A program made the translations under genes and the position numbers. 64,000 nucleotides of DNA from contig NW_026515670.1 of assembly GCF_025526975.1 (NCBI RefSeq), positions 1,612,001-1,676,000 on the forward strand, written 5' to 3'. Below are positions 9,358 to 63,900 of the stretch, piece by piece (the stretch's first letter is position 1; each line of letters begins with the position of its first letter). This stretch comes from Fimicolochytrium jonesii (Eukaryota). The notes below the pieces were generated by a model that saw nothing but the letters and a program-made list of their open reading frames with translations, was not told where the DNA came from and made no database searches.

Positions 9358-10040
9358 GATGGCGATGGTTTGGTGTTGAAGATAGGACAGTGAGGCCGGC
9401 GAGCCCGCACACCGGCATCCGCAGCTTATATACTCTCCCATTCGCTACATCTAGCAGCGTTCCCGAACGGTTGCACACAAACCCCATTGCTGCCAAAGGA
9501 TTCTGTGAAATCTCCTCCATCTTCGAAATCACCAGAAACGGTTTGAAAGACGCCCAAAAGGTAATCGGAAATCAAAACAACATCGTGGCGGCCCAAAAAG
9601 AACCTTCACGTGCAGTCCTCAAGTGTCGTCGGATGGCATTGTTACCTCGACTCAAAGCGACTTCCCTATAAAGCAAGTGTATACAGCGGTGACCAGGGAA
9701 GTGTACGCCCCTACAACGACGCGTGCCGGGTGTCAAAGGATTCACTTTTGTTATTGTCCTCCCTTCTCTGGTCCCAGATAGTGCCGCTACGACGCTAACA
9801 TGTGTAGAATGCGTTTCTTTGCGTCCAACTGCGAAGCAACAACTAAACACGGGCACACCTTCCCACACGGCCTTCCTACGTCCACGTGCTGCAAAAGAGC
9901 CACAGAAATCTGTCACAGCAAGGCATACGGGCGAACCCCTCTCCCCTCGTTCCATTGCCGAGCACGTTTTCACAGGTTGTCGGGATTCGCCGCACGGATC
10001 TCGACAGCGTGAAGCTGACTCCTGTCAAAATTCTGCAGAA

Positions 10041-10220
10041 AGTTATTTCGCGCGGAAGGCTGTTTATTCTCGCACGGAAGGCCATTACTCGATGCGGAAG
10101 GCTGTTTATTCGTCTACGGAACCCACCATAACCTTAACCCTAAGTTATTTTGCGTGGAAGGCTGTTTATTCGCGCACAGAAGGCTATTATTACTCGATGC
10201 GGAAGGCTGTTATTCGCGCG
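10041..10220. repeat. Composite tandem repeat built on GGAAGGCTGTTTATTC, duplicated with about 102-bp period
   Basis: AGTTATTT-GCG-GGAAGGCTGTTTATTC-CGCAC-GAAGGC-ATTACTCGATGCGGAAGGCTGT occurs at about 10041 and about 10143. Confidence 0.85.
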
Positions 10221-14130: not shown

Positions 14131-16064
14131 TTACATGATAAAAATCTGGTTCATATCCATTGCTCTGAAATGAAAACACCAGAAAGTCAGCCTCCCCACC
14201 TCGAAACCGAGTAACATTCCTACACACGCACAAACGCCCAAAACAAAACCTACCTCCCACTCGACAACTGCGGCCTCTGCGTGTACTTCCCCGCCAACAA
14301 GTTCCTGATCTCGCCCAACAGCTGCCCATAGGACGGCGCATGGTACATGCTCAGCGCTTTGACAAACCCATACGTCATCGCGCCCGTATCCTGTCCCTCG
14401 ATCCTCGCATCCGCACTCGTCTGTTTATCCTTACATCCGGACAACATAACCACATCGGCAAACATATTTCCCTTCTGTTGGACCAACTGCTCGTGGGAGG
14501 CGCCGGAGGATGTGAGGGTTTTGCCGGCGGCGAAGAGGGACATTCCGGCGCCGAGGACGCCGCCCTTGAGGAAGCCTTTGCCGACGGACATGGCTGCGCC
14601 GCCGAGACGGGTTGCGGCTGTTTTGGTTTTGAGGCGGCCGTCGGGGAGGTAGGTGAAGGGGAGGTCGAGGGAGGAGCCGGAGTGGCAGCAGTCGAAGAGG
14701 CAGGTGAGGCGGACGCCGGGGGGGAGCGGGCGGACGAGAATTTGGTTCATTGTCTGTAGGGAGTGAGAGAGGGAAATGTTGGAGGTTGGATGTCCTTTTT
14801 TTTAAGGAGATGCCAGCCCGACTTACGTCGTCGGTGATCATCCCGGCCTTGTCGTAGTCGACGGGACATATCGTCTCGTCCGTTCCGTCGCTTTCATCGC
14901 CGTCCTTGTCTGCCTGCTGCGACCCGTGTCCACTGCAAATGTCCGATGTTGTAACGCGTCAGTGACCCATGTACAACGAACTGCGGGAGCAACACAGTCC
15001 TTCCACTTTCATATGAGTTATGGTAGGGACCCCCTCACCTGAAATGAAAAAACAATGAATCACCCGCTTTCGCACCCGAGACCAGCCACTGCATTGCCTG
15101 CAGGATGTTCTGCCGCGCGGGTTGCAGGTGCCAGTTGGTGTTGTCGTCGGTGAGACAGAGCATGTGTTGCGGGTCGTCGCGGAACCCAAACTGGGTGCAG
15201 AGGAAGTTTTTCATGTTTCGGACGTCGTTTATGCATCCTTTCAGCTCGGATCGAGTATTGAAGTAGTTGACGCCGACAAGCAACGCCTTTTTGTTGCCAG
15301 AACAGTTTGAAAGGTATGCTGGAAAGGTTGACAGAAGAAGAAATGAGAACACAATATGGGTGAGCGTTCGTTGGCTCTCACATTCAATGCTCGCTTCGCT
15401 CGCTTGACTTGCGCCTGCGGCGCGGTACTCGCTCCGCTCGCAGTTCACCTCGTTCGTCCTCAAGCATCCCCTGCGCCTCGCTAAGCTCGGTGCAGTGCGC
15501 AAACCAGGGCTCGCTTCGCTCGCCGCCATCGCTCGCATCAAATATCAAGGCTCGCTTCGCCCGTCGCTTCGCCCACGTCCCCTTCGCTCGGCGTCCCAAC
15601 ATACGTGCGGTCTGCTGCATATACTGCTGTGGCGGTCCCTGCCAATGCGGCTGCTGCTGTGGCCATCCCGCGGGCGGATTTGGCGGCGGATGTGTCGGGA
15701 CAGACTGATAGTTAGCCGGCTGATGTGGTGGAGGTTGGTGTGGCGGCGGGTAATTCGGCGGCGGGGCGGCGTTTACGAGTGTTTGCGGGGGCGGTCCAGC
15801 AGGGGCCCCATATTGGTTTTGCGGCGGCTGGTATGGTTGGTATTGTTGTTGCTGGGTTGGAGGGAAGCCCTGTTGTTGCTGCTGCTGGTAGGGAGGTGGA
15901 GGTCCCGGTGGCGGGTAGGACTGCTGCTGGTGCTGGGGTGGGTAGGGGGTTGGGAAGCCGGCTTGCTGCTGTTGTTGGGGAGGAGGGTAGGGAGGATTTT
16001 GGGGAGGGCCGTAGGGTGAGGGACGGGGCTGCTGCCCGTTCGTCCCATATTGTCCAGGGTACAT
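14131..16064 (-). CDS. MCA1: Type I metacaspase with P/Q-rich prodomain
   Basis: KKALLVGVNY, LKGCINDV, LFFHFSGHG, DETICPVD, LFDCCHSGSSLDLP, SGCKDKQTSAD, C-terminus MDMNQIFIM*. Confidence 0.96.
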
Positions 16065-16443: not shown

Positions 16444-17081
16444 ATGCCCACGCTCCCGACCCTCCTCCACTTATTCCACTGCCTGCACCTCCCCACCACC
16501 CTCCTCCTCTCCCTGCAGACGCTCCTCCCCGCCGCCTACACGCATCTCATCCCCCCCTTCGTGGCGTCATCCCTGCAGTTCTGGTCGGACTTGTCCGGCG
16601 ACCCGTTCCTGGTGCCCGTCGAGCAGCAGGTCGGGTGGGTGAAGACCGTGCTGGTGACCGAATGTGTCGTCGTCGCGCCGTATCTGATTTGGGCGGTGAT
16701 GAAGGGAAAAGACGGTACGTTTTGTTACCGACGAGAGTATGTGTGGCCAATCCTGCCAAAACTCACAATGAAAATCACCCCCATCGGCAAATACATTTTA
16801 TAGCTCTCGCCTGGCGCACCCCGACGTCTGCCACCACCTCCAGCACCTCGACCTACACCGCACACCCCCTGACCCTCGTGTACCTCTCCCACTCGGCGAC
16901 CACCTCGCTCCTGCTGACCGCCGACCTTTTGCTCAACCCGGCGCACGCGTTCAAGGCCGGCCAGCGGTGGATGGCTGTGGGCGCTTATGCGCCGTTTGTG
17001 GTAGTGCCGGTGGCTTTTATTGTTGCTTTGAGTAGAGGCGCGGGGAGGGAGCGGAGGGAGGGGAAGGTTAAGAGGGTGTAG
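16444..17081 (+). CDS. EXPERA-domain (TMEM97/Ema19-like) membrane protein, 2 exons
   Basis: LHLPTTLLLSLQ, SGDPFL, WVKTVLVTECVV.APY, YLSHSATT, AYAPFVVVP pattern; several TM segments. Confidence 0.7.
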
Positions 17082-17341
17082 ATGCGAGGTGCCGGTTGGT
17101 AGAACGGCGGCATGGATGTTCCGTGGACGGGGTCAGCGTACTTCGCTCGCAAATAGAGATATATCTCCCTGATATAAGGTCCTACGTACGAAGCCAGTAC
17201 GCGCACATCTTGGATGTACTGTTGTAGAGTGATCTCGGGAGGGACGACCGAGAACTGTTCGAATACCTTCCTTGAACACGCGAACCACACCAGAAGGATG
17301 GCACATATGGCCAAGAGCGCAAGACCAAGAGATACTGCCAT
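16985..17341 (-). CDS. Orphan ORF with N-terminal hydrophobic anchor (uncertain)
   Basis: MAVSLGLALLAICAILLVWFAC; no family recognised; overlaps the 3' end of the EXPERA gene. Confidence 0.25.
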   Translation of the reverse strand: MAVSLGLALLAICAILLVWFACSRKVFEQFSVVPPEITLQQYIQDVRVLASYVGPYIREIYLYLRAKYADPVHGTSMPPFYQPAPRIYTLLTFPSLRSLPAPLLKATIKATGTTTNGA

Positions 17342-17507
17342 GCCAGGCCGGATTTCGGTTTGATTGTTACATGAGACATACTTTTTTTTCAGGCTGTTAA
17401 AAGGCAGGAGAGGCAACACTTAATAATGAAGCATAACGATCAAGTGGTATTTCAAGCGAAGGCGTCCGCCGAAGGCAAGAGCCGGGTGTATCTCAGAAGC
17501 CGGGAAC

Positions 17508-18011
17508 ATGCGGAAGGAGGCGCATTTGGCGTGCGTCGTGGCGCGCGACTTCCGTTTGGGAGAAGAGGGCGAGGGTCTCGTTGACGTGTCGCAAAAGGTG
17601 GACGAGCTGGATAAGAAGTGCGAACGTCATTTCGCCGCCATCATGAAAGAGGCTAAAGCTGCCCATCGACGCTTGGATCACGCTTTCCCGGCCTTGGATA
17701 CCAGGATGTGTGCCATTGACGACAAGCTTGCACAGGTGACACGCAGACTGGAGAGTTTGACCGAGGAGACCTCACTGAACGCCGCGGGTTTATCGAAGTG
17801 CGAGAAAAGCATCGCAGGTATAGCTATACAATCAGATCAACTAACGGACGCTGTCGAAGCCTTTGAGGAAAGTAGGAAAGTGACGGACAAGTCATTGGAA
17901 GGGATGCAACAAGATGTAAAAGAGCTGTACCAAGAAGTGGTCGATCTAAAGAAATTCAACGACAAGGTCGTCCTCTTCTACCATGAGGATGACAGCGAAG
18001 GAACCGGATAG
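17508..18011 (+). CDS. Intronless orphan coiled-coil protein
   Basis: 167-aa ORF with heptad-like E/K/L composition; no family recognised. Confidence 0.45.
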   Translation: MRKEAHLACVVARDFRLGEEGEGLVDVSQKVDELDKKCERHFAAIMKEAKAAHRRLDHAFPALDTRMCAIDDKLAQVTRRLESLTEETSLNAAGLSKCEKSIAGIAIQSDQLTDAVEAFEESRKVTDKSLEGMQQDVKELYQEVVDLKKFNDKVVLFYHEDDSEGTG

Positions 18012-18131: not shown

Positions 18132-19167
18132 TCACACAACAATCTGGCTACCACTCGCTATGCCTCCTATTCCATTGCAGGTAACGACGAGATTACGCCC
18201 AACGTGAACGCACGAATTCTGGATGTTGATGACCACTTGGCTTCTCTGTGAAGCCACTACCTGTTGCTGCTGGTGCTGCGTGGTTCTGGTACGGCGGCGG
18301 CAACCAGCACCGCCTCTGATATGTCGTGGCACACCGTAAATTCCCGATCTCAGTTTCAAGCCGGCTAACCAAGTGAAGAAGGGCTCGTACAGCTTCCACT
18401 CTGTCAAACGATGTTTGTTGCGGTGTCCGTGATGGGTTCTATCATATTGCACACGTTAGAATATTTGATGATATTCAGAACTTCGCCCTCACGGACCACA
18501 GACCTTCCAAAAAGAGTATGAATCAGTCCATGCAGTCCTTCCGGAACCCTAGGAGCATTATCTCCGAAATAGACGAAGTCGTCCGCCAGAAGGACATTCT
18601 TTCCCCTCAAGTCCACTGCTTGATGCTCATGAGGACATTCTCCATTCACCCAAACGCCTTCACGATAACCACAATCCCCACATAATGATGGTACGATGTG
18701 GACCCGGGTAGCGGTATCTTGAACCCGAGCGGTCCTCCTTGGTTGGCGTCGTCATGACATTTTCGGTAATATTCGTCGTAGCTTATCACCTCCTTCCAGC
18801 ATGCGACATATACGAGATATTTCGAACCCGAAACTTTGTCATTGTGAAGACCGATGGCCATGTCACCCACCGAGGCTGATTTCCTGATCTGCGATTTGCA
18901 TAAGGCCAACGACAGTCGTCCACCAGAAATATTAGGGGCGAGACCCGAATCGTTTGTCACCCAATAGAAATCCAGCTTGGGAGAAAGCTTGGATCGTTCC
19001 TCCTTCTTGGCGGCTATCATCACTTTTGAACAATCGACGAGGAAACGAAAGCTGGAACGGGAAGCAAGTTCGGCAAGAAGCGTCTCGGGGCGGCTGCCCG
19101 GTCGAAGAGGCCGGCGGGCGTCCTCATCGTGAGTAATGACTCTGGGTTTGTTTCTTTGAGCAGGCAT
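18132..19167 (-). CDS. Nucleotide-modification-associated domain 2 (Nmad2)-like gene; one putative intron (18439-18503) and one apparent frameshift near 18690, so possibly a pseudogene
   Basis: YWVTNDSGLAPNISGGRLSLALCKSQIRKSASVGD..LVYVA..ISYDEYY; GDCGY; DLRGKNVLLADDFVYFGDNAP; GHR..FFTWL..L..GIYGVP match the recalled Nmad2 motifs in order. Confidence 0.78.
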
Positions 19168-19944: not shown

Positions 19945-21159
19945 CTACCGAAACTCAAAAGCCCCAAAAGCGGTACTCGGCACGTGCTCCAAACTCAAAT
20001 GCTGGAACCACTCCGAATTGTGATGGAAATACAATCCGGTAATCTGCCCCGTCGATTTCTGGTACACGATGTAGTAGAAACCGGCGAAGGAGGCGCCGCT
20101 GATCGCTTTGATGCGGTAGTCGGGGACTAGGAAGAGTTCCTGTGGATAAATATTGGGGGGGAGTTGTGTGAGATGATGTTTCGGAACTAGAGGGTACTGT
20201 GAGCACGTACCTTCCAACGCATGAAGATAAAATCGCTGTTTTCGAAATCGTATGCGAAGCCATCGCGGTTAAAGATGTTCTCGTATTCTTTGAAGGCGGG
20301 AAACTTTGTCTAATTGCGAGGAAATCAAATGAGAATGACCACTACGGAGCGAAACTCGACCCATCCCGTTCTGCAACCACGTACCCAATGCTGCCGATCA
20401 ATGTGCTCATCCGCCTCCCATTTCCGCGTCAGAAAGCTGTATTTCGGCCCAATGATCTCCCCTTCAAAGAACGTGCACAGATCTGGCCAGTCGTCCGTCA
20501 GGCCTTTGATGCTTAGGTATCCGCATAAAAAGGAGCTGCGTAGATCTACGTGCTGTTGATAGGAGAAAGATTGATTAGTAAGATTATCATGGTTGCTTGA
20601 AGAGATCGGTTGGTTGGATGCGCGCTTGGCTAAACGATAGCCTGCTCGCTCGCTCGCGACAAGGAGGTTGGGCGCGATGTCATAAAAACGACCGTTCGCT
20701 ATCGCTCACGGTTGAAGACAGGGGCTCGCTTCGCTCGCCTAAAAATACCATTGTTCGCTTTCGCTCACGGTTGAAGACAGGGGCTTCGTTCGTCCTCGCT
20801 AACGCTCGGTATTACAATGGGCTCGCGTTGCTCGCATTCGCTATCGCTCTCGCTCACTCGGGTTCGCGTGTACATACCTGAATATCCACAGCCACCTCAT
20901 AACTATTTTTCCCACTCTTCTGTTCGCCCGTAAACTTGCTCCCGGAAAACAACGAACAGCAATGCCTATCAATCAACCTCTGATGCGGATCCCCACCCAA
21001 CTGAAGAATCGATCCTCTCCGCTTCCTCGGCTGAGTGCAAGTATCGTCGTCACCGTTACCGTCGCCGTCCGCTATGGGGTCCTCTGACCTGTCTTTGCGG
21101 ATGTGAGAGTCGGTGGAGGTTGAGGCGGGGGCGGCGGGGAGGGCGGCTGTTACGGGCAT
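19945..21159 (-). CDS. GID4: GID/CTLH complex substrate receptor Gid4 (Vid24-like)
   Basis: [83 protein letters not shown]. Confidence 0.95.
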
Positions 21160-22507: not shown

Positions 22508-24134
22508 ATGTCAAAGCCCCTCCTCAAACAGTCCCGCCGCAACCTGCCCCCACCGCCAGTCAGCCTGCGCAGGACGCAGACACATCACAATGAATCCGTT
22601 CCGCTCAACGGGACCATGATGCAGTTCTTTGAGTATGTTTTCGCCCACCCATTTTCACTTTCAGCGCTATATTTCATCAGTGCGCGATTACTTATGTGTG
22701 GGTGTTCCTTTTTTTTTTTTTGGATTTGAAGGTGGCATGTACCGTCAGACCAGAAACACTGGGATAGGCTGCAGGAACGCGCGGCAGAGTTGAAGAAGAA
22801 TGGTGTGACGGCGGTTTGGATCCCGCCTCCGACGAAAGGGTATGCATATGGTTTGATGCGACGGGGGGATCCGAGTGGAGAGAGAAGACGCGAGCGGAGC
22901 CCCGGGGATTGCGCCTTGGGCGAGCCTTAGCGAGCGAAGCGAGCCACACTCCTGCCCACGGCAACTCAACGTCCTCCTCGGGTATTGTTTGTCGATGGTG
23001 GGCGACAGCGAACGGTCGTGGTTCACACATCGTCCATCCCACATCATGCATCGCTCATCACTTTCGCATCGTCCTCATCCAGAGCAAGCAAAGACTGCGT
23101 CGGTTACGCCATCTACGATCTCTGGGACCTCGGCGAATTCGACCAAAAAAACACGGTGGGGACAAAGTACGGCACAAAAGAATCCCTCAAAAAGGCCATC
23201 AACGCGTGCGTCATGAACGGCATCCACGTGTACGCCGACGCCGTGCTCAACCACAAGCTCGGCGCCGACAAGACCGAGACGTTCCGGGCCGTCGAGGTGG
23301 CGAGGGACGACACGACCCACGATATCTCGGGCCAGCAGGAGATCAAGGGGTGGACAAAGTTTGAGTTTCCGGGGAGAGGCGACAAGTATTCGTCGTTCAA
23401 GTGGAACTTTAACCATTTCACGGGCGTGGATTACAATGCGGCCAATAAGAGGCAGGGCATTTATCGGATTTTAGGAGACGGGAAATACTGGGTAGGTTTT
23501 TGTGGGGCTGCCAGCTGTGGCTGAAAGGTTGAGTGCTCGCCCCCTAAGCGGGAGTGGATTCTCTCTTCCGATGGACTGATCTGTCGACTCATGGTTTTGA
23601 TTTAGTCCGACAATGTGGATAACGAGAACGGAAACTACGACTACCTGCTCGGAGCTGATCTCGATACGGCGCATCCCGAAGTCGCCGAGGAGGTATGTGG
23701 ACCAACCACTGGGAAGATGTAACAATCTCCATCGCTATACACCCGTCTCACATCCCATCCCTCCGCACCTCAACAGCTGAAGAAATGGGGAGTATGGGTC
23801 ATCAACGAGCTCAACCTCTCGGGCTTCCGTCTGGACGCGGTCAAGCACATCGACGCCAAATTCATGGCCGAGTTCCTCGAGCACTGCCGGTCCCACACGT
23901 CGCTCGGCCAAAACATGTTTGCCGTCGCCGAGTACTGGAAGAACAGCATGAGCGATCTGGAGGACTACCTCGACGTGCACGACTGGAAGCTGTCGTTGTT
24001 TGACGTGCCGTTGCATTTCAACTTTGCCGAGGCTGCTGCCAAGGGCAGGGATTACGACATGACCAAGATCTTTGATGGGTCGTTGGTGCAGGCGCATCCG
24101 ATGCAGGCCGTGACCTTTGTCGTAAGTAGCCAAA

Positions 24135-24174
<40 letters not shown>

Positions 24175-24772
24175 CATCTCTCCCAACCCCCTCGTTGGTA
24201 ACTCATCATCATCATCATTCATCCCCTTCCTTGCGCACAAAAATGCCCCGCAGAACAACCACGACACGCAACCCGGCGAATCCCTCGCGTCCTGGATCCC
24301 ACACTGGTTCCAGCCGCACGCGTACGCGCTGATCCTCCTCCGGCGCGACGGGTACCCCTGCGTGTTCTACGGTGACGTCTACGGGATCTCTGGAGCGGCG
24401 CCCGTCGAACCGCTGGCCGCCCCCGCCATCACCAACATCATGAAGGTGCGCGCCCACTTTGCTTACGGCGACCAGGACGAGTACCTTGACCACCCCAACA
24501 CCATCGGGTGGGTGCGCCGCGGCGACGAGAAGCACCCGCAGGGGTGTGCCGTCGTGCTGTGTGCCGGGGACGAGGGCCACAAGCACATGTTTGTCGGCGA
24601 GGCCAAGGCCGGGGAGAGGTGGGTGGATGTGGCCGGGGGACGCAGGGAGGTGCTGGTGATTGGAGAGGACGGCTCGGCGGATTTCCCGTGTAACGGCGGG
24701 GCCGTCAGTGCGTGGGTGAGGATGGAGGAAGCCAGGGACGTGATGGCGTGGAAGGAACAGGACGAGGCGTAA
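22508..24772 (+). CDS. Intracellular alpha-amylase, GH13 subfamily 5 type
   Basis: NGTMMQFFEW, VGYAIYDLWDLGEFDQK, DAVLNHK, GFRLDAVKH, VAEYW, NHDTQPG, GYPCVFYGD; no signal peptide. Confidence 0.95.
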
Positions 24773-28445: not shown

Positions 28446-29882
28446 TTAGTCCTGGTGGTTGGCCTTCTTCTTGGCTTCCCGCTTCTCCTTGGCCTTGATT
28501 TCCTTTTCGGTTGTTGGCTTGACGGTTTCCCTATAAGAGTTTGAAGAGAGTCGGTATGGGTGTTAGGATCCCCCCGAATGATAGACACCATCGCGCTCTC
28601 TACGCCCGGCCTACATACCCGAAAGGGTTAGCGGCCTTCCAGGGCCTAACCAGCTCCGCAACAGGCTGCTTGCCCAATAGATGGATCTGAACAAGCTGAG
28701 TCGAGTAGAGAGCCTTGAAGCCGAGGATGGACTGCAAGAGAAGGGGGCGGAGGTATCCAAACTTGAAGTGCATGAGACCCAGGATGGCTGCGGCGATGGC
28801 CTGCGAGCGGAGCTGCTCGATGATCTTCTTGATGTCGTAGTCTTTGACGGTGGTGCGGATTGTGGTTGTGTTGCTGGGGTCTAGAGCGTTCGCAGCTTCC
28901 GTGTAGACTAGTGGTGTTTGGTCTGTTTGAGGATGGGGATGTGTGCGGAGGATGAGTGGAGATGTGTGTATGGGTTACGACTTTCAGCTTTCTTTGACCG
29001 CAACCTTTGACCGCCGCGCACAACCAAACACTCTCGTGTCTGTCCCGTCGCCCCTCAACCCTCTGTACACACCATTAGCGGCGACGACCTTGCTGTAAAT
29101 GAGACCCCAAACAATGACGGAGATGATCTGCATGCCGAGGTAGGCAGCACGGAGGTAAGGGGTGTTCTCCTCCTTGTCGAGCTCAAACTTGTTGGCCTGC
29201 GGGTCATGGAAAAGGTAAGTAAGCCATGCCGATGGAGGAATCGGAGCGAAAGCGAGGCGATGAATAGTTGGCGACAGACGAACGATGGCCCTCTGGGACA
29301 ACGGTGTTGGGCAAGCGATGTGGATAGGTCGGCTGTGTAATAACGTGTTACGTCTTTGGCGCAACCATGTCGCTTTACTCGAATCTCCTCCGGCGAAGAA
29401 GTAGAGCCGTGCGAGTTGGGACACGGCACATTCGGCGTTGCACTCGCTCCCCTGTGCGCGCCAGGGAGCGCTTCGGCTCGGCCGTGCGAATCATGCTCGA
29501 GCGCGGGACCGTCCACCCGCCTTCCACCCCACCAACCGCCTCACACCGAACGGCAAAGTAGAGCCGCGCGAGTTGGGGACACGGCGCATTCGGCCTTGCT
29601 CTCGCTCCTCTGTCCGCGCCAGGCAGCGCTCGGGCTCGGCCGTGCGAAACCATGCTCGAGCCTGGACCGTCCACCCTCCTTCCATCCCATCACACCCACA
29701 CCTCTCCAGTTCTCCTAACGTAACGCACCACTTGCATGAGCCCAAAGACCACAATGAGGTTTGTGATCTGTGAGTACGAGAGAGCGGGAAGTGAGTGTAT
29801 GAGTGCAAGTGATCACCGAAAACACGAATGTCAGCAGGATGGTGCGGCCGCTGAGTAGCCATGTACTTACGGCGGGGTTCAT
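28446..29882 (-). CDS. PHO88: ER-targeting protein Pho88/Snd3 (multi-exon)
   Basis: MNPA|ITNLIVVFGLMQV|ANKFELD..YLRAAY; TTVKDYD; LMHFKFGYLRPLLLQSIL; LVRPWKAANPF. Confidence 0.92.
29398..29692. repeat. Imperfect tandem duplication (about 157-bp period) inside PHO88 intron 2
   Basis: AAGTAGAGCCG-GCGAGTTGGG-ACACGGC-CATTCGGC...GGCTCGGCCGTGCGAA-CATGCTCGAGC..GGACCGTCCACCC occurs twice. Confidence 0.9.
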
Positions 29883-32231: not shown

Positions 32232-34523
32232 CCTCGCCGGGTGGTGTTGAGGAGTGAGAATGTCGTGCCGGTTGAACCCTCTCCTTGTTGGCGGGTCCGG
32301 TTTGCAGTTGATAACCCCCTTCTAGGAGGGTCGAACAACGAAGGAAGGAAGACGAAGCAAGACGACGATGGGAGTTGTTGAGCTGTACAGTAGAGTACTC
32401 AAACGAAAGCAATGCCGACGTCCAACGGCCAAGCGGGAAGGAATGGAAGGAAGGGCACGAATTTAGTCACAGCGGCAACTCGCGCCGTGGCGTCGCATCC
32501 CTGCTTGGCTGCTGCATACTGCACTTGGACAAAGTCGCTCATACCTAACACGCATTGCATTGCATTCGGACGGATATAGGCTCCACTTTCGGCACATTCC
32601 AACAATGAGTTGTAGAGCGAGTGTGAACGAAAGCGAACCATCAACCGTGTGAGCGACAGCCAACCATCAACCATTAACCACTTACCATGAACCATCAACC
32701 ACCCACCATCAACCCATCAACCATCAACGAGATGATAATAACTCTCGCTCAGCGAGAGCGCTCCCTTTACGTAGTAGCAAAAATCTGATGCTCGCTGTCG
32801 CTCTCCGCTCGCTTGCGAAGGGGTTTGGTTTGAACGAGCAGGGCATTCATTTAGGAAGCGGAAGGGAAAATGTGGGGCCCCGCCAACGAGGGTGATTGAC
32901 TCATGTCTACTCAGTTTTGTCAGGGAACATTGGAATTGGATCTCAAGAGCACACTGCGAGATGGTCATGGTCCTTCCACCAGAGCTGGAGCGCCTTTACC
33001 AGACAGACTCCACTCAGTGGCACCGACAGCCCTGCTCGTTGTGGTGGTAGTAAACAGGTCCGTAACTGTGTCTGGTGTGGATAATAAACAACAATCACGT
33101 GGGAGCAGTTTAAAAAGCGGCATTGCAATGATTGCATACAACATCCGCCGCGTATCCCGGGCATCGTCCTGTGGGCAGCGGGAGTGCTCTGGGAACAACC
33201 GGCGGCTCCGCTGCTCCGACGACCATCGCTTGTTACGTAAACAGTGAATGATATGGAACATTACGCGGGAGGCTTATTGCTGGTGCACCACCCATATGGA
33301 ATCATGGATGGAGATGCCGCCACCACCAACAACTGGAGACATGCATGCACAAAGTTTCGAACAGGCCTCATACGGGACTTCCGCTGGTTTCACAATACGA
33401 GGTGCCCCAAATTTGACCACCACCGGTTCAGCCGCCACAGCCCACAACCCGACGGCTTACCGCAGATGGCCCTGGCTCACGCAGCTCAGGCAGATGGCCC
33501 TTGCTGCGAGAACTGCTCACAAGGAACTGCCGCATCTTCACAAGCACTGAATGATGAAACGACCCGATGGTGCCGGCGATATCGTGGACAAGAGGGTTGG
33601 CGTGCAGGTCATTCATATCTATCTTTGGCGAACTGTCCTCTGCTGTTCCGAGGGCGATTCTGGGCACTCACGGGGCGGCAGGAGGTTCTCTGCGCGGGCT
33701 TCACACCTCTCTTTTGTCCACCAGGGGGCTTATAGTCCTTGTCTTCACCGTTGTCCACCACAGCGACAGGTTGCTTCCCCTTCGCCTTCGTGGGTTCCTC
33801 CTCCTCCACCATCCCCTCATCCTCTACATGCCCCTCGTTGTCCAACGACAATATGACCAACTCCACTGCTGAGTGTGGCTGACTACCCCTTCTGCTCCCA
33901 CGACAACTCTCCACCTCCTCCACCTCTACCACCTTCCGCTGTTTGTAGGGGGCACGGAATGCTCGTGGAACGCTGTCGCAGGCTGGCGGCGGTGGGTGGA
34001 CTGGGCTTTCGGCGTAGACGAGGACAACGTGACAGCGGCTCGCTTGGGTCTCGCAGCCTGGGCTCTCAGCTCCTTCATTCTCTGTGCGTGCTCTGCCTGC
34101 TGGGCTGCAATCTCGCGGGCATCTTCCGAAGGCATTTCGAAATGGTGACAGGATGTTGCTCCCACGGAAGCGACTTGAGACAGGTGAGAAGCTTGAGCTT
34201 TGGAGGTGCTCAGAATGCTCACTGGCTCGATGCAAGTGAAAAGGATCTCGCTGCCCTTTGCAATTGGTGTGGGCACTGTTGAGGACCAGGTTGAGGACTT
34301 AAAGGGGTTCCAGATCACGTGACGGCTCGTTCGTCGGACACACAATCCGAAGTTCGTCTGGGAAAGCTTCTGGCCATGTTCCATCGGCACAGGGCACCAT
34401 CGGCTTCCCTTCGACTTGACCGGAGACTCCCCAGCCGACTCCATAGACTGACTGTTCGTCCTTGCGAGATTGCGCGCGTACACAAACCTCGTTTTCACGA
34501 CCACCGAAAAGAACTTGCACAGC

Positions 34524-37130
34524 ATGTACGGCGGCGGAGGCGGCGGCGGTTACCGTCAGCAAATCACCGGAACAAACAATATCCCCCTGGGCACCCGCAG
34601 AAAGCGAGACGATTACGACGATCACGCTCCTCCCCCGCCCCCACCGATCAAACAAGAATACTCATATGGCGGCGGTGAAGAGCGCAGATATAACAACGTG
34701 CCTCCTCCACCTCCCGCCAGCGCACAGTCGGATCTCGCTGATGTGAAAGAAGAAGGTAATGTTTTCGGTATTGCTCCCTCGACTGGTCACCCGTTGCACT
34801 TTGTTCTCCCCCTTGGAGTGGGGCAGCTTGTTGGGGTGGGAAGACGTTGATATGGGGAGATAGCATTGGCGACACTCTTGCTCTGTTCTATGCACTCAAT
34901 ATATCAGTATCAACCCCAAACCTGCGCCTCTCCTCTGTTGTTAACCAACGTGACGCATATGGAGTATAGCCGCTCTACTGACCAGTCTGAGTGTACAGAG
35001 CGAACCAACCCCTCATGATTCTCTGACTGGTACTAACCTGATAACGTTCTCAAAATTTCTTATATTTCTAACGCGATTAACCGAAAACTCACAATCTCAC
35101 CAATACCTACTCACCGAAAATGATACCGCTAACCTACCGCGTGATCTCCGACGAAAACCCACATACTGGCTACTGATACAATAGGCAGGGAAGGTCGAGC
35201 CAGGAAACGCCGTTCTCGATGGGGAAATGAAGAGACGAAGATCAATATCCCGGGCATGCCAACGGTTTTGCCTGCTGGACTTGCCCCTGAGCAGCTGGAC
35301 GCCTATGTCATACACATGAGACTTGAGGAAATCGCGGTGAAGTTGCGGAATGGGGATTATGTGCCGCCTGAGAAGGACCGGTATGCAATGCTCGAATCAG
35401 CATCTCCTGTAATCCGTCTTACTGACTTTCCCTGTTTTAGTTCGCGATCACCTGAACCCATCTACGGCGCAGATGGTAAGCGTATCAACACTCGCGAATA
35501 CAGATACAGGAAGAAACTGGAAGACGAGCGCCACAAGCTCGTCGAAGAGGGTCTGAGGAAGCTGCCTGGTTTCAAGCCTCCTACAGACTACAAGCGTCCC
35601 AGCAAGACTTCGGACAAGATCTACATCCCCGTTAGGGATTATCCGGAGATCAACTTCATCGGGCAGTTGATTGGTATATCCGTCTTCAAGCTTTCTACTT
35701 TGGACACCTTTGCTCATGTATTTGTATTTGTACAGGTCCGCGTGGAACAACCCTGAAACGCATTGAATCCGACTCTGGAGCGAAAATCAGTATTCGTGGA
35801 AAAGGTTCCGTCAAGGAAGGAAAAGCCCGCGCGGACGGATCGCTCGCACCTGGCGAAGAAGAGGACTTGCACTGTCTGGTCACCGCCGATTCGGAGGACA
35901 AGGTTAAGATTGCCATCAAGGCTATTGAAAAAGTGATTGAAACGGTAAGCATTGTTGCGTTGTTATTGTTGCGTCTTTGGGTGATTTTCCTGACAGATTG
36001 CTGATCATTTTGACAGGCCGCGAGTGTACCGGAGGGGCAGAACGAATTGAAGAGGATGCAGTTGCGTTATTTGGCTGAACTTAATGGAACGCTGCGTGAT
36101 GATGAGAACCAGACTTGTCCCAACTGCGGTGGAGTTGGTGAGTTTTACACTCGTGAAGTGTATGTTTGCATACCACTTGGGAAACTGATGCAATTTCATT
36201 TTAGGTCATCGTCGTTTCGAATGTCCTGAGCAGAAGAATTTCACTGTCAATTTGGTATGCCGTATTTGTAACGGTGTCGGTCACGCTGCCAGAGGTATGT
36301 GCAACTTTTTCCCCCATCTAAGCCCTTCAGAGACTGATTCGCACGACATTCGACAGACTGTATGCAGCGCAACGATCCCGAAGCGTTGCGTGAGGCGGAG
36401 CAGCGTGATCAGAAACTCGACAGCGAGTATGCCAACCTAATGGCTGAGCTAGGGGACTCCAGTGCGGGAGCCGCCGGGGCCGGACCTGTCGCGCGTTCGG
36501 TATGTTTACTTTTCGTCACTCAGCTCTCAACCGTCAGTCAATAACCCAACCTTTACCCAACGATTGTTAGAACCACTATGGACCCGGCCGTCCCTCCGGC
36601 CCACCCTCCGCAGCACCAGGCGGACGTCCCCCATGGGCTAGCGGCGGCGGCGACCGCGGACCATCGACCGGAGGAGCCGGCGCCCCTCCACCATGGGCAC
36701 GACGAGACAACGGCCCTCCATCAGGCCCACCACCGCCATGGCAGCAAGACCCTATCGCTCCTGCTCCCCCGGGATACGGTCCTCCTGGTAGGTTTCCCCA
36801 CCCCACCTCATTACTTCCCGTCTCCACGCACTCATCTCAGATCTTCTCTCATCACCTTCTCATCTCTCATCAGGCATGGGACCCCCCGGAGCCCCCAACA
36901 TGGGACCCCCAGGCGCCCCCGGCATGTCACCCGCTCCCTGGAACCAACCTCCCCCCGGCGCCTACATGCCCCCGTACGGCGGCGGCGACTACTACGGCGG
37001 TGGCGGTGGTATGGGTGGCCCACCCGGTATGGCTCCACCTGCTCCGCATATCCCTGCGCCGGCGTGGGCTCCACCTCCGCCGCCGCCGCCGGCTGATCAG
37101 GCGCCTCCCCCGCCTCCGCCTGCGTATTGA
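34524..37130 (+). CDS. MSL5: Branchpoint-bridging protein / splicing factor 1 (KH-QUA2, two zinc knuckles, Pro-rich tail)
   Basis: [80 protein letters not shown]. Confidence 0.97.
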
Positions 37131-45263: not shown

Positions 45264-46184
45264 TCACGGCTTTCCCCACACGGCTTTCCAATCGGCTGAG
45301 CGCAACAGGGGGAGCTTGCACTTCATGACATTCGTATACTGATGATCATCCCCGTCGTTAAGAAACGTTGCCAATACAATGCTTAGCGCGATGTTATGGC
45401 GAGCATTGACGGCGGTCTGGGGATCATCCCCCCATAATTCGGTTACTTCACCCACAGCACCACGGGCAATGGCATCAGCCATCATGCACACAAATGTACC
45501 GCAGTTCTGGTCGTCTGTCTGTCGAGGCGTGAAAAGGGCAGCAATATTCGGCGTGCTATTCAGTGTGTGCTCGAGATTGACGGGGATTCTGGTGGCTGTG
45601 ATGTACCACTTCCACAAGATGGAGCCGATATTGGCCATCTCATCCACATACTCCTTGTCGTTTGGGCGTGGCTTCGAGTCAAATAAAACGAGATATATGT
45701 TTTTCCATCTGGTTAACAATGAACCAGGGCCGTTAGGTCCCTTATCGTGCTTGGGGGGGCGCAGGGGTTTCGCGGACTTGGGCACGGGTACTGCGACAAG
45801 AGCTTGCTTTACGGAAAAGAGCTCAGCTTGCAAGTCATCTCTCTGGCCGCGGAGCATGTCGACTGTGTTTGCCAGTCGCTCGACGAACTGTGATATCCGC
45901 TTTTCATCATAGGTAGTGTCTGCGGTGTGGGAAAGTGTTTGCGTCATGGATAGCGTTTGCACCGTCGACCGTCTCCTCAATCTGCGTCCAGCATGGAGAG
46001 GTCGACGCCCGCGCAGCCGCCGTAGAGGGCCACTAACCCATCGAGGGTAAGGCTTCCATTCTTCCATTCTTCCATGCGTGCCTTCTCCTTCTCTTGAAGG
46101 GCCCTCTGCCTGACTAGATGATAGTAGATGAGGAGCAAGGATCAACAAAGATACATGAGGAACCGTTTCCTTCCATAGACTCAC
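45264..46184 (-). pseudogene. ORF with partial Ulp1/C48 peptidase-like C-terminal region
   Basis: LVLFDS and PRQTDDQNCGTFVCMMADAIARG resemble Ulp1 D and Q-x5-C motifs; upstream catalytic His (HW) not seen. Confidence 0.5.
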
Positions 46185-46322
46185 TTATATTATATATTCT
46201 TCTCAAGGAGACTACTATGTGGACATGTGTGCAGGCGCTGCATGAACGTAGGCGGTTTCCTTTTTCGAATGGCTTGGTAGATGCGCCGAACGCGGGCCCA
46301 AAACCAGCTGTAGAACAGCGCC

Positions 46323-47135
46323 TCAGTCATCCCAATCTACGACGAAGTCCGAGGTATGCACCTTCTGGACAGGACTCTCTATCAAGATGTCCTTAATCAT
46401 TCTTCCAGACTCCAGCGAGAGTTCTTCTCCAAATTCCAACCGGCGCTCGATTTCCTGAGGGTCTAGGTCGCTCGACACGACGGTTACCAGATTGACATCA
46501 ACGACGTACTGCAATAGACCAAGTTTAGCGTCGACGAACAATGCGTTCCGTGTCGCGATCTTAGTCCAAGGATCCACAGCTCGGTAATCTGCCAGGATGG
46601 CGAGGAGATGAAATCCGTGCATAGGCCCGGTAAGCAGGTCCCAGACATAAATCAATTCTTCCATAGTGGTGTGACTCGGTACTCCAGATAGGCTGTTGTC
46701 CAACTTTCGAAGTCCTCCGTTGACTGCAGCGAGAACGTCACCTAGGCCGATAACTGCTGAAGATTCTGTATTGCCATCGACTTGAACCAAGAATACTGGA
46801 TCGAGTACAGTTTTTTCAAATTGTCGAAGCCCAGCTGGCAGGTTGTGCACGGATCCTGCCATTTGATGACTTCCGTTCTCGGGCAGCGGTGTGGGGCAAA
46901 GCTTAATGCGAGCGTGTAGATCGTGATGGTCGGGAGCGGAACAACGGTACATTCCTATGAGCGGGCTGTTAGTAAAGGAACTGTCGGAGCCTGCCCTGTT
47001 CCAAAACGAAAACGAACCTTGAACACTTCCTTCGGGAATGCCGATTGCACTAGCGGCCCAAGACTTGCTTCTGCGCAGTGTCCTAGCGGGTTTTTTAACG
47101 AGATTCGAGGCGATGTTGCCGGGGGTAAAAGCCAC
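46323..47135 (-). CDS. Intronless orphan ORF (270 aa)
   Basis: Long ORF with globular-looking C-terminal half; no family recognised. Confidence 0.3.
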   Translation of the reverse strand: MAFTPGNIASNLVKKPARTLRRSKSWAASAIGIPEGSVQGSFSFWNRAGSDSSFTNSPLIGMYRCSAPDHHDLHARIKLCPTPLPENGSHQMAGSVHNLPAGLRQFEKTVLDPVFLVQVDGNTESSAVIGLGDVLAAVNGGLRKLDNSLSGVPSHTTMEELIYVWDLLTGPMHGFHLLAILADYRAVDPWTKIATRNALFVDAKLGLLQYVVDVNLVTVVSSDLDPQEIERRLEFGEELSLESGRMIKDILIESPVQKVHTSDFVVDWDD

Positions 47136-47541
47136 GGGCCCGCAGCGCTTCCGCCCGTTGCTTTAGGATGTCCTCCTCTGTCGTTTCCTGTCGGCTGACC
47201 GCGAAAAATATCTGCAGCCGCGAGGGCGAAGATCTTGACGTCGTAAGGGTTTCGGCCGGCTTCTGTTGCTGATTTGCGGATGCCCGCAACGATTTTCTTG
47301 AGGTGCTTCTGGCTGCGAACTCCCTGGCGGACGGAAGCGCAAACCGCCACTTAAACCGGCGAGTGCATCACGTGAGCGCGCGTGCCCTCCTTCCGCTTAC
47401 GTAAATAGAACCGTGTTGCTTTCCTTCGTCTCCGAGTCTCAACGCTCGCTGTTGGCTTCCAGTTTCTCAACTGGGCAATTGTGTGGGCTAGTTCGCAGAC
47501 AACTCCCTTTACACCCCCGAACCAACAACCCAGCCTCCAAC

Positions 47542-60973: not shown

Positions 60974-63900
60974 ATGTCGCCGGCGACCGCACCGCGAGTC
61001 GTGTCCTGGCTGCTGCTGCTATTTGCCGTGTTCCTCGAAGGCGCCGCGGCCGGAACAAGACCACCGGGGAGGGTCAATCGCGAACGGCCGCAGCCTCGCC
61101 CCGCTATTCTCGGCAGCAGCACCGTCGCTCCCGTTCTAGCCAAGAGGGACAATCCTTTGGCATCGCCACCGATATCGACACTGTCAAACAGCAGCGACCC
61201 TTCCCACTTGGTGTATTTGAGAATAGGGGTGAGTAAGGACTCGCCCAAAAACCTTGATATATATACATCCGAGCGCGAACGAAGACCGAGCGAAGTGAGG
61301 GGACATAAACGCCCAAAGGCGTAAGTACCGAGAACGAAGCGAGCGTGTACAAAAATGAAAGGAGCGCAAGAGAAGCGAGCGAGGACGGATGGATTAGCAT
61401 CAGCACTGGGATTGCTTGGGATTGCGTAGCATCGCGTAAATCATGTGTATGGCGCACGATCCATGAAAGGTTGCGTTTTCGAAGGACACGGGAAAGAGGT
61501 CCCTATGCGAGGCCTCTCTATTGGTTATGTCACGGATCTTGTTTGAGTTCCTGTGTTCTCACTTTCCTCTCTGCATCAACGATAGGTGGTTTCGTCCAAT
61601 GGCGACCAAGTGGTAAGACGCAAGTCTGCACTGTCGACTCTGAATATCATTCAAGCTGACATTGCGCCTTTTCCACATAACTAGGAGGAATCATGGAATT
61701 CGACTTTGAGAGCCACATGGCAGGCGTACATTCTAGCGCAGGAGGACATCAATGCTGATCCCACCGCCTTTGGGCTCCCCGCAAATGCAAGAATCTGGCT
61801 GGTACGATTAACGGTTCATCAATCTTGAAACCGTGTGGTCGACTGTTTCGCGCATGCACCCAGGTCCCTGAATCTCTCTGCATTCAGGACATGCATGATC
61901 TCCGTGACATCACCGGCAGCTATAACGGGGCCGCCATGCTCGCCGCATTGAATGCTTACTACGATGGGGCCATTGCGATACTCGGCACCGACGGCAGTGA
62001 GTCCACCAAGGCCGTCGCGCAAACCATGGGCCGCTTGCAAATACCCCAGTGCTCTCCGTGGGCCGGTGATGATGCTTTATCAAGCAAGATCTCGTTCCCT
62101 TACTTTTTCCGGACGTTGAGTGGTGCCTCGGACGACATCTCCTACCTTCTGCCCGTCATGAAATACTTTGGCTGGACCCAATTTTCCTTCATCTATTGCG
62201 ATTCGGCGCTCGGGAATGCATGTAAGCAAGCTAATCGAATTACGTGACACCCGCAGGATGTGTAACTTTTTAAACTTGACATTCGTTCTATTCCGCGTTT
62301 TAGACCAAACGGCGTTGACGGATCTCGTGATAACTGACGCTCGGTGGCAGATTACGAGCAAATTCACAAACGGCGTATGGCTTGGTTCCGACAGTACGTT
62401 GGCGCATTACCATATCAATGGTTTTCGTGATCGGCTAATGCCAAGTGTTCTTGCTCTAACTAAAAGATGGATACCCCTCCCTCTCTCCCCTGGGCTTGCT
62501 ACTTGTCGTTTCCCCACAGGCACGGACATTGCCATTGCCGTTGATCAAATGACACGCGCATTTGCCGATGGAACTCGTGTCTTGTTCTTGGCTGGGAATA
62601 TGGATTGGATGGCCGCCATGTTGTTGTTCGCTTACAAAGCTGGGCTTATGCGTGACGATATGGTTTGGTTGACTACCCAGGTGAGAGATTTACTAGATGT
62701 ATGCTGTTTTACGTTGTACATAGCTGCGCACTCTTGGTTTACATGTTGCATCCCAAATTTTACAAAAAGGATGTTTCAGAGGAGCTCGATATTGCTACAA
62801 GGGACACAGCCTTGACTCAGAAGATTATGCGTGGATCTTTCTTTGGCACCGCTGGTGCCGCAAATACCCCTGCCAGCGAACAATTTTTAGAAAGGCTTCC
62901 AAAGCTGGACACCACGTTGTATCCTGACCTTGGGCTTCCGGGTGTCAGCAACTTGGAGTGAGTTATCTTTACCTCTGATTATGCCAAGGAGTTGCTTCGC
63001 AACTGCGATGTATTAATCATGATCTTCGTATAAGTGTGTCGTACGCTTGCGTCCAGGCGCTCGCTGCTGGCTGGGGGAAGGTACGCTCACCAACCTTTCC
63101 AACACCAAAGCTGGTCTGGCCACCTGTGAACGAGCACTTTAACACTCGCTTTAACATCCTATCGCTATCGGGCTCCCTTTTCGCAAATGCTAGTTCTTGG
63201 CGGATGGCGCGGCAAAAGGTGATCCCACAGTGACTTTGGAGAACCTCGCTAGTGGGACCTTCAACGCCAATTTTACGCCCGATGTATGGAATACGGGGGC
63301 CGATAGCCCGGTTGGATACCTCACTTTTGACGAACATGGAGATATGGTCCCCGCGTGAGTGTCCCATTGAGCCAAGCTTGCCGATACTTGCTGCTTCACT
63401 TACTCGCTTGCGATTCCAAAAGCTTCTACCAGATCTACAATTTCAACGGCACAGATATGATGGTTGTCGGAAGATCCGATCAAATCGACTACACTCCTAA
63501 CCAGGCACCCATATTCAGAGATGGATCCAGTGCTGTGCCGCGGACAGCTCTGGAAAGAGTCGTCGTAAATTCCACTTGGGGAAGCAACGATGCGGTCACC
63601 TTCCTGGTGGTCAGCGTCCTAGGGATCATTGTGACATTAGTCACTACGGGGACGATATGGATGAATAGACGACATCCTGTCGTAAAAAGAGCCAGTCCAG
63701 CTTTTTCAATGGTGAGAACGTCAAGTGCGACAACGTAAGCACATATTACCTGCTCTATTGGGCGAGTTTTATTGATCGGTACAATCGTCTGCGCAGCTCA
63801 CGCTTTTAGGCATTATCGTGGGATACTGTACCATCTTTCCGTATATCGGCATTCCGGATTCGAAAGCGTGTGTGACGCAGACATGGTTGCCGCCTGTGGC

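What the first reader, a model, noticed from the sequence alone, without database searches (positions are those of the whole stretch)
18132..19167. Prokaryote/phage-type Nmad2 DNA-modification domain in a fungal genome, apparently with a spliceosomal intron
Seen: three minus-strand ORF pieces read in order give YWVTNDSGLAPN..LSLALCKSQIRKSASVGD..LVYVA..SYDEYY..FKIP / CGDCGY..DLRGKNVLLADDFVYFGDNAP / THHGHRNKH..FFTWLAGL..GIYGVP. Pieces 2 and 3 join in frame on removal of a 65-nt intron (18503-18439: AG|GTCTGT, TTCTAAC branch point, ATAG|), giving LFGR-THHGHR. Knowledge (recalled): this motif series matches Nmad2, described in bacterial and phage operons with alpha-glutamyl/putrescinyl-thymine pyrophosphorylase-type base-hypermodification enzymes. 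Inference: a horizontally acquired, possibly virus-delivered, gene was expressed long enough to gain an intron, hinting at an undescribed base-modification or antiviral function in this lineage. No partner enzyme is recognisable in the window.
Basis: partly seen in the sequence, partly recalled or inferred. Interest (0 to 1): 0.85.

Follow-up and report, generated by a model that had tools for sequence, protein, structure and literature searches.

The report
Broken bacterial Nmad2 gene in fungus
A fungal chromosome carries a lone bacterial-type Nmad2 gene, whose family is predicted to fold like proteins that read chemically modified bases; it has a likely intron but also a frameshift, so it is most likely a borrowed gene that was once spliced and is now decaying.

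Summary
The Nmad2 match is real. Pieces 1 and 2 pass the Pfam PF18753 cut-off, and piece 3 matches a homologue profile weakly. The gene sits between intron-bearing fungal genes on a 1.79-Mb contig. The 65-nt insert is probably an intron: canonical GT-AG, a CTAAC branch site, and its removal restores the family's spacing (2.6% of shuffles do this). Its donor, however, is unlike all 15 host donors. The neighbouring coiled-coil gene is frameshifted too, while seven host genes or exons show no break. A confident model of a full-length homologue matches PUA-like modified-base readers (YTH, EVE, ASCH), not base-synthesis enzymes. Bacterial copies sit beside TIR or Nmad3 genes, or alone; no phage copy was found. 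No fungal orthologue, partner gene or sequencing run was found. Verdict: a horizontally acquired, probably once-spliced reader-domain gene in a small decaying insert; an intact gene hidden by assembly errors remains possible. This scan noted Nmad2 before in at least 12 other genomes; none of its notes held the words fungal, eukaryote and intron together with Nmad2.

The parts
18680..19167 (-). Nmad2 piece 1: ATG 19167, a ~60-aa basic N-terminal extension not seen in the aligned homologues, then the N-terminal half of the domain. As assembled, this frame runs on to a stop at 18648-18646.
   Evidence: Pfam PF18753 60 bits; own profile E 7.5e-27
18676..18679 (-). G4 run, the simplest site of the one-base frame break between pieces 1 and 2; homology places the break between about 18712 and 18677
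   Evidence: no intron keeps the conserved motifs; the KIP..GD spacer is 11 aa in 85 of 129 homologues that have both motifs
18504..18679 (-). Nmad2 piece 2 (GD-x-x-Y, H, DL-G-NVL, F-YFG motifs)
   Evidence: Pfam PF18753 33.2 bits
18439..18503 (-). 65-nt probable spliceosomal intron: donor GTCTGT after exonic AG, branch CTAAC 18459-18455, acceptor TAG; GC 0.42
   Evidence: splicing not observed
18132..18438 (-). Nmad2 piece 3 (GH, F-x-x-W, G-x-x-G-x-P motifs to about 18318), then a ~60-aa tail to the stop at 18134-18132
   Evidence: own profile E 0.003; end-to-end BLAST to homologues
17426..18011 (+). Convergent, intronless coiled-coil gene of no known family, also frameshifted (near 17519)
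   Evidence: homologues P0151 and P0152 at 45-48% identity; their first 33 aa match the other frame at 67% identity, E 6e-14; sequence
16985..17341 (-). Short ORF with an N-terminal hydrophobic segment, overlapping the 3' end of the host EXPERA gene; possibly part of the same insert
   Evidence: no Pfam hit; no viral relative
16444..17081 (+). Left flanking host gene, EXPERA/EBP-like, one intron, frame intact
19945..20960 (-). Right flanking host gene (3' part), GID4/Vid24, three introns, frame intact

Best explanation
This is a bacterial-type Nmad2 gene, likely acquired horizontally, lying in a small insert of about 2.5 kb between two fungal genes; it likely gained a spliceosomal intron while transcribed in a eukaryotic nucleus and has likely since been inactivated by a one-base frameshift. 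Shown: family membership, the frame break, the frame-restoring GT-AG segment, the second broken gene beside it, and intact flanking host genes. Predicted: the family has a PUA-like fold of the YTH/EVE/ASCH kind. Inferred: the protein is a binder (reader) of modified or unusual bases in DNA or RNA rather than an enzyme that makes them. In bacteria it would act as the sensing subunit for a coupled TIR effector or for Nmad3. In the fungus the intact ancestor would have been a stand-alone nucleic-acid binder, and the present copy would give only a truncated half-domain.
For: Pfam hits on pieces 1 and 2. The read-through with X at the break aligns end to end with homologues at 30-36% identity and keeps 34 of 40 family-conserved columns with no in-frame stop; the homologue median is 38, and 23% of 200 homologues keep 34 or fewer. 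So any decay is recent. Intron: the spliced form scores 141.0 bits against 131.8 and 131.5 for two unspliced readings. The YFG..GH spacer is 9-25 aa in the 150 of 267 homologues that have both motifs; it is 23 spliced and would be about 44 unspliced. A frame-restoring GT..YAG pair with a CTRAY branch arises in 2.6% of 20,000 shuffles. Decay: two frame breaks in 1,556 coding nt of the insert, against none in 6,465 nt of seven host genes or exons holding 41 G/C runs of 4 or more. The neighbour's break is not in a homopolymer. Foreign origin: all 30 Atlas hits are Nmad2 clusters, the three shown 100% bacterial where taxa are known; 6 of 6 organism-named rows among 120 listed homologues are bacterial; GC3 is 0.38-0.60 against 0.61-0.87 in 8 host exons. 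Fold: homologue model pLDDT 90.6; its top 24 matches among 48,161 chains are PUA-like domains or proteins that carry them (YTH Z 8.1, rmsd 3.2, 121 aligned; ASCH, EVE/THYN1, McrB-N, VcaM4I).
Against: The Nmad2 break falls at a G homopolymer, the typical long-read error site, and nothing else in the domain is visibly damaged. The clustering of both breaks in the insert is only P about 0.04, or about 0.07 by arithmetic on the five spliced conserved genes alone, since the two long exons were picked because they are open; the test is post hoc. The donor GTCTGT differs from 15 of 15 host donors (all GTR), the segment is shorter than all 15 host introns (71-328 nt), and its pyrimidine content is at the low end. 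A GT..YAG pair without a branch site arises in 21% of shuffles. Fold Z-scores are middling, and the strong match comes from a homologue: the window's own half-domain model gave only Z up to 4.1. The donor lineage is unresolved.
Confidence: 0.52

Rival explanations
1. The gene is intact and spliced. The frame break is a homopolymer consensus error, and the fungus makes a ~320-aa stand-alone Nmad2 reader with added basic termini, possibly sensing modified viral DNA.
For: The break maps to a G4 run, and one base restores the modal spacer. There are no in-frame stops, 34 of 40 conserved columns are kept, and the splice signals appear intact. Stand-alone Nmad2 also occurs in bacteria: no partner was recognised in 3 of 7 loci examined.
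Against: The neighbouring gene is broken too, at a non-homopolymer site. No break was seen in 6,465 nt of host coding sequence. No relative at E<1e-10 other than itself exists among 1.84 billion representatives, so no conserved fungal orthologue is in view.
Confidence: 0.25
2. The insert is a dead-on-arrival foreign fragment that was never expressed in this lineage, and the 65-nt segment is a random insertion that resembles an intron by chance.
For: Atypical donor against 15 of 15 host donors. GT..YAG alone arises in 21% of shuffles. The spliced spacer (23) is longer than the modal 18. The neighbour is intronless.
Against: A perfect CTAAC at a normal distance plus frame restoration occurs in 2.6% of shuffles, and in 0.14% with the exonic AG (added post hoc). 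The terminal branch is long (1.12) while conserved residues are kept, which implies long selection after the split from sampled homologues. The segment has no second copy or flanking duplication in the window.
Confidence: 0.14
3. The gene came in with a eukaryotic virus or similar element (for example a fungal giant virus), where it served viral DNA modification, and the insert is an endogenised remnant. This concerns the route and is compatible with decay.
For: Compact, low-GC3 orphan genes between host genes. Giant-virus remnants, including lone viral genes on otherwise fungal contigs, are reported in zoosporic fungi (PMC13533422, passages). The coiled-coil neighbour has only two unplaced metagenomic relatives.
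Against: No relative in 7 pattern scans of IMG/VR (close relatives only) or in phage records. No Nmad2-like model in BFVD (best ASCH, E 1e-3, TM 0.39). No terminal repeats and no hallmark viral gene were found.
Confidence: 0.2
4. The segment is an assembly chimera or bacterial contaminant.
For: Lower GC (0.49 against about 0.55), a singleton, and no reads available to check.
Against: It lies inside a 1,794,109-nt contig with no N, under 3 kb between two intact intron-bearing genes. It carries a spliceosomal-type segment and has no close bacterial relative (best 39% identity).
Confidence: 0.04

Closest known systems
[quoted passage not shown]
   Same: Passes the gathering cut-off in two pieces, has the motifs in the same order, and keeps 34 of 40 conserved columns.
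   Different: Eukaryotic chromosome, probable intron, ~60-aa extensions at both ends, a frameshift, and no operon partner.
DS-4 (NTTI) anti-phage system of E. coli, PMC13092281: thymidylate synthase, dNMP kinase, putative base-hypermodification protein, TIR, Nmad2
   Same: Contains an Nmad2 protein (supplement rows). TIR lies directly upstream of Nmad2 in 3 of 4 plasmid loci opened.
   Different: None of the other four genes was found in the window. DS-4 protection was weak in the one assay row seen (-log EOP 0.93, smaller plaques, phage lambda), and I saw no test of Nmad2's own role.
PUA-like modified-base readers: YTH, EVE/THYN1, ASCH, T. gammatolerans McrB-N, VcaM4I
   Same: Predicted fold of a full-length homologue (Z 5.6-8.1, 109-140 residues aligned).
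   Different: Identity only 4-15%; base-binding pocket and ligand untested; not fused to a nuclease.
Giant-virus remnants (Mycodnaviridae) and other foreign genes in zoosporic fungi, PMC13533422
   Same: Isolated foreign gene among fungal genes.
   Different: No capsid or other viral hallmark here; Nmad2 was not found in the readable supplements (6 of 10 files could not be searched).

Membership tests
Nmad2 (PF18753) | Profile score above the gathering threshold | tested here: met
   60 and 33.2 bits against a cut-off of 26.1; Atlas 30 of 30 hits Nmad2
Nmad2 (PF18753) | Conserved Cys and charged residues along the whole domain | tested here: met
   34 of 40 columns conserved at 80% or more in 200 homologues, including the invariant P, L, C, R, when read across the break
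Nmad2 (PF18753) | One uninterrupted full-length domain (functional member) | tested here: not met
   frame break at about 18679 in the assembly, not explained by an intron; could be a sequence error
Spliceosomal (U2) intron | GT..AG ends, branch site, and restoration of frame and homology | tested here: met
Spliceosomal (U2) intron | Donor matches the host consensus GTR | tested here: not met
   GTCTGT against 15 of 15 GTR donors
Spliceosomal (U2) intron | Excised in RNA | not testable with these tools
   no run was listed, which is no evidence either way
DS-4 / TIR-Nmad2 or Nmad2-Nmad3 system | Adjacent TIR, Nmad3, TS, kinase or aGPT-Pplase gene | tested here: not met
   no such Pfam hit among about 300 window ORFs (45 aa or more within 16.9-22.7 kb; 95-110 aa or more elsewhere); short exons further away could be missed
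DS-4 / TIR-Nmad2 or Nmad2-Nmad3 system | Partners elsewhere in the genome | not testable with these tools
   no whole genome is held
PUA-like modified-base reader | PUA-like fold | tested here: met
   for homologue P0126; the window's half-domain gave only weak hits, many of the same class
PUA-like modified-base reader | Binding of a modified base | not testable with these tools
   needs a binding assay
Endogenous giant virus | Viral hallmark genes, or Nmad2 or neighbour homologues on viral contigs | tested here: inconclusive
   none found, but the scans reach close relatives only

The most novel reading that the evidence does not exclude
The frameshift is an assembly error, and this early-diverging fungus expresses a spliced, bacterially derived Nmad2 reader. 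It would be a eukaryotic use of the sensing subunit of bacterial TIR-Nmad2 anti-phage systems, recognising modified bases of invading (for example giant-virus) DNA or of its own nucleic acids.
Probability: 0.2. Interest if true: 0.75.

Novelty: new member of a known kind. Interest (0 to 1): 0.42.

Why it matters
Nmad2 is an uncharacterised family tied to bacterial nucleotide-modification and anti-phage operons. I found no report of it in a eukaryote (searches 'Nmad2', and 'PF18753'; subscription journals are not covered). An intron-bearing copy would show that the domain was kept under selection in a nucleus without its operon, which supports a self-sufficient reader function and adds to the bacterial immune parts sampled by early-diverging fungi. 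If the break is real, it is a snapshot of gain, splicing and loss in one lineage, with modest general importance. One look at the raw reads separates the two cases.

Tried and rejected
Intron between pieces 1 and 2: rejected; all 22 stop-free GT..AG candidates of 30-200 nt delete conserved motifs. RNA and DNA read check: no run was listed, so read laying could not be used; this is no evidence either way. Whole-genome partner search: no genome held. Close relatives of Nmad2: only itself among 100 candidates; 370 representatives at E<=0.001 but only itself below 1e-10; none in metagenome or viral contigs; three bacterial loci from GTDB. Context of the coiled-coil homologues: not found in metagenome, viral, GTDB or phage collections, and the Atlas gave no answer for it. 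The taxa of the nearest Nmad2 homologues (P0006, P0012, P0076) could not be looked up, so eukaryotic or giant-virus members among them are not excluded. Phylogeny: quick tree only (careful search unfinished), 97 rows; 53 of the 149 homologues were left out for covering fewer than 130 profile positions; no supported sister group. Half-domain model: no Foldseek match at E<=0.001 in PDB or BFVD. Terminal repeats or target-site duplications around the insert: none convincing. No second copy of the insert in the window (the tblastx output there was uninformative). One host intron was mis-anchored and the amylase and CDF frames were mis-set; all were corrected, where the bZIP exon was dropped. The original Nmad description (Iyer et al. 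2013, recalled) is not held. PMC8989533 has no mention of Nmad in its main text. My notebook gives the neighbour's break as about 17485-17490; the sequence puts it near 17519.

Full report
Observation. Pfam Nmad2 (PF18753) matches piece 1 at 60 bits (profile 6-76) and piece 2 at 33.2 bits (profile 120-180), both above the 26.1-bit cut-off; piece 3 has no Pfam hit. A profile built from 84 homologues ranks pieces 1, 2 and 3 first, second and third of 2147 six-frame segments (E 7.5e-27, 1.7e-9, 0.003), in collinear order. The family assignment is therefore secure.

Host context. The window is fungal. It holds intron-bearing GAPDH, Pam17, metacaspase, EXPERA, GID4/Vid24, alpha-amylase, Pho88, SF1, Sec15, Brix, PARN and a gene with ANF_receptor and 7tm_3 domains. 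An early-diverging (chytrid-like) host is my inference from that gene set and was not tested. The contig is 1,794,109 nt. Nmad2 lies in a gap of under 3 kb between the convergent EXPERA (+, ends 17081) and GID4 (-, ends 19945) genes. It shares that gap with a coiled-coil gene (+, 17426-18011) and a short hydrophobic ORF (-, 17341-16985). GC3 is 0.56, 0.38 and 0.60 in the three Nmad2 pieces and 0.62 in the coiled-coil gene, against 0.61-0.87 in eight host exons. No terminal repeat or target duplication was evident.

Junction 2-3, the proposed intron. The segment 18503-18439 is 65 nt, starts GTCTGT after an exonic AG, has CTAAC at 18459-18455 and ends TAG. Removing it gives 141.0 bits against the homologue profile, versus 131.8 (retained, with a second frameshift) and 131.5 (read-through). 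In the 150 of 267 homologues that carry both flanking motifs the spacer is 9-25 residues (mode 18). It is 23 after splicing and would be about 44 without. In 20,000 dinucleotide shuffles of the segment with 15-nt flanks, a frame-restoring GT..YAG pair occurs in 21%, with a CTRAY branch in 2.6%, and with the exonic AG as well in 0.14% (the last criterion added post hoc). Against it: all 15 host introns located have GTR donors and are 71-328 nt, and its pyrimidine fraction (0.52) is at the low end of the host range. I rate it about 75-80% likely to be, or to have been, a real intron. No sequencing run was listed, so splicing is unobserved.

Pieces 1 and 2 overlap in different frames. All 22 stop-free GT..AG candidates delete conserved motifs, and there is no AG between the KIP and GD motifs. 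In 85 of the 129 homologues with both motifs the spacer is 11 residues, which is what this gene gives if one base is missing. The simplest site is the G4 run at 18679-18676, where the nearest homologues read V-G-D. This is a one-base frameshift, real or an assembly error. Read across the break with X, the protein aligns end to end with homologues at 30-36% identity and keeps 34 of 40 family-conserved columns with no in-frame stop (homologue median 38; 23% of 200 keep 34 or fewer). Any decay is therefore recent.

Real break or error? A homopolymer site favours error. But the neighbouring coiled-coil gene is broken as well. Its two metagenomic homologues (45-48% identity) match one frame for their first 33 residues (67%, E 6e-14) and another frame thereafter, with the switch near 17519 in a context that is not a homopolymer and has no intron. 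Five spliced host genes and two long host exons (6,465 nt, 41 G/C runs of 4 or more) show no break. The chance that both breaks fall in the 1,556-nt insert is about 0.04 under a uniform rate, or about 0.07 using only the five spliced genes; the test is post hoc. This favours decay of the insert by roughly two to one without excluding local consensus errors.

Relatives and origin. Among 1.84 billion representatives, 370 hit piece 1 at E<=0.001 but only the window's own protein is below 1e-10. No close relative was found in metagenome or viral contigs; spliced fungal genes may be poorly represented in these protein sets. A quick tree of 97 rows gives a terminal branch of 1.12, best identity 39% and no supported sister, so the donor is unknown. 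All 30 Atlas hits are Nmad2 clusters, the three shown 100% bacterial where known, and 6 of 6 organism-named rows among 120 listed homologues are bacterial; most homologues are unnamed. tblastn found 17 plasmid records and no phage record of 50,697, with either piece 1 or a full-length homologue. 'Phage-type' and viral delivery are thus unsupported, though giant-virus remnants occur in zoosporic fungi (PMC13533422, passages seen).

What Nmad2 probably does. A model of full-length homologue P0126 (pLDDT 90.6) matches, in its top 24 rows of 48,161 chains, PUA-like domains or proteins that carry them: YTH (Z 8.1, rmsd 3.2, 121 aligned), ASCH, EVE/THYN1, McrB-N bound to 5mC DNA, and VcaM4I. In BFVD the best hit is an ASCH protein (E 1e-3). 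The Z values are middling but the class is consistent. The window's half-domain model gave weak hits, many of the same class (Z up to 4.1). Such domains are described as modified-base binders (PMC7641849 and PMC6765204, search listing and abstract start only). Of seven bacterial loci examined, three have TIR directly upstream together with nucleotide kinase, MazG-like or UDG genes, one has Nmad3, and three show no recognised partner. Nmad2 is gene 5 of the validated system DS-4 (TS, dNMP kinase, hypermodification protein, TIR, Nmad2; PMC13092281, passages and supplement rows), with weak protection in the one assay row seen (-log EOP 0.93 against lambda). I infer a reader or sensor role rather than base synthesis. 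No partner was found among about 300 window ORFs, and the rest of the genome could not be searched.

Novelty and verdict. Searches for 'Nmad2' (3 unrelated papers) and 'PF18753' (0) found no report in a eukaryote. Supplements that could not be read (6 of 10 files of PMC13533422) and the original family paper (recalled, not held) may bear on this. Earlier scan notes describe Nmad2 in at least 12 other genomes, and none holds the words fungal, eukaryote and intron with it. The finding is a real, unusual placement of a known but uncharacterised family: one genome, no partner, no expression data, and a frameshift. Best reading: horizontally acquired, probably once spliced, now a recent pseudogene in a decaying insert (0.52). 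Intact gene with a sequence error: 0.25. Interest 0.42; 0.75 if the intact, expressed reading holds.

Noticed in passing
window 17426-18011 (+): Coiled-coil gene of no known family with a conserved non-coiled N-terminus and C-terminal motif; only two metagenomic homologues (P0151, P0152); frameshifted near 17519.
   Followed up: partly
window 16985-17341 (-): Short ORF with an N-terminal hydrophobic segment that overlaps the 3' end of the host EXPERA gene; no Pfam or viral match.
   Followed up: partly
window 45264-47162 (-): Two long intronless-looking orphan ORFs between host genes; the downstream one has a weak Ulp1/C48 protease match (E 0.0012, below cut-off). Possibly a second foreign or transposon-derived island.
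   Followed up: partly
window 33200-34900: Orphan stretch with several overlapping ORFs and no Pfam hit at E<=0.001, upstream of SF1; may be a decayed element.
   Followed up: no
window 22700-24772 (+): Intron-bearing alpha-amylase whose sequence looks like the bacterial liquefying type (subfamily recalled, not tested).
   Followed up: no
window 61759-63735 (+): Class C GPCR-like gene (ANF_receptor plus 7tm_3 pieces).
   Followed up: no
window 15360-15560, 20630-20860, 22880-23010, 2365-2406: Several host introns hold a recurring GCGAGCGAAGCGAGC-type low-complexity repeat; one pair is 88% alike over 42 nt.
   Followed up: no
window 10040-10216 and 29399-29692: Short tandem duplications (76 nt and 138 nt at 88% identity).
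   Followed up: no
P0004, P0014, P0028, P0038, P0044, P0066: Proteins of 420-490 aa with Nmad2 at the C-terminus; their N-terminal halves look like Nmad3 (recalled, not scanned), i.e. likely Nmad3-Nmad2 fusions.
   Followed up: no
P0012, P0013, P0037, P0076, P0023: Nmad2 proteins with long low-complexity or basic extensions, several near the window protein in the quick tree; their taxa could not be retrieved and they may include eukaryotic, endosymbiont or giant-virus members.
   Followed up: partly
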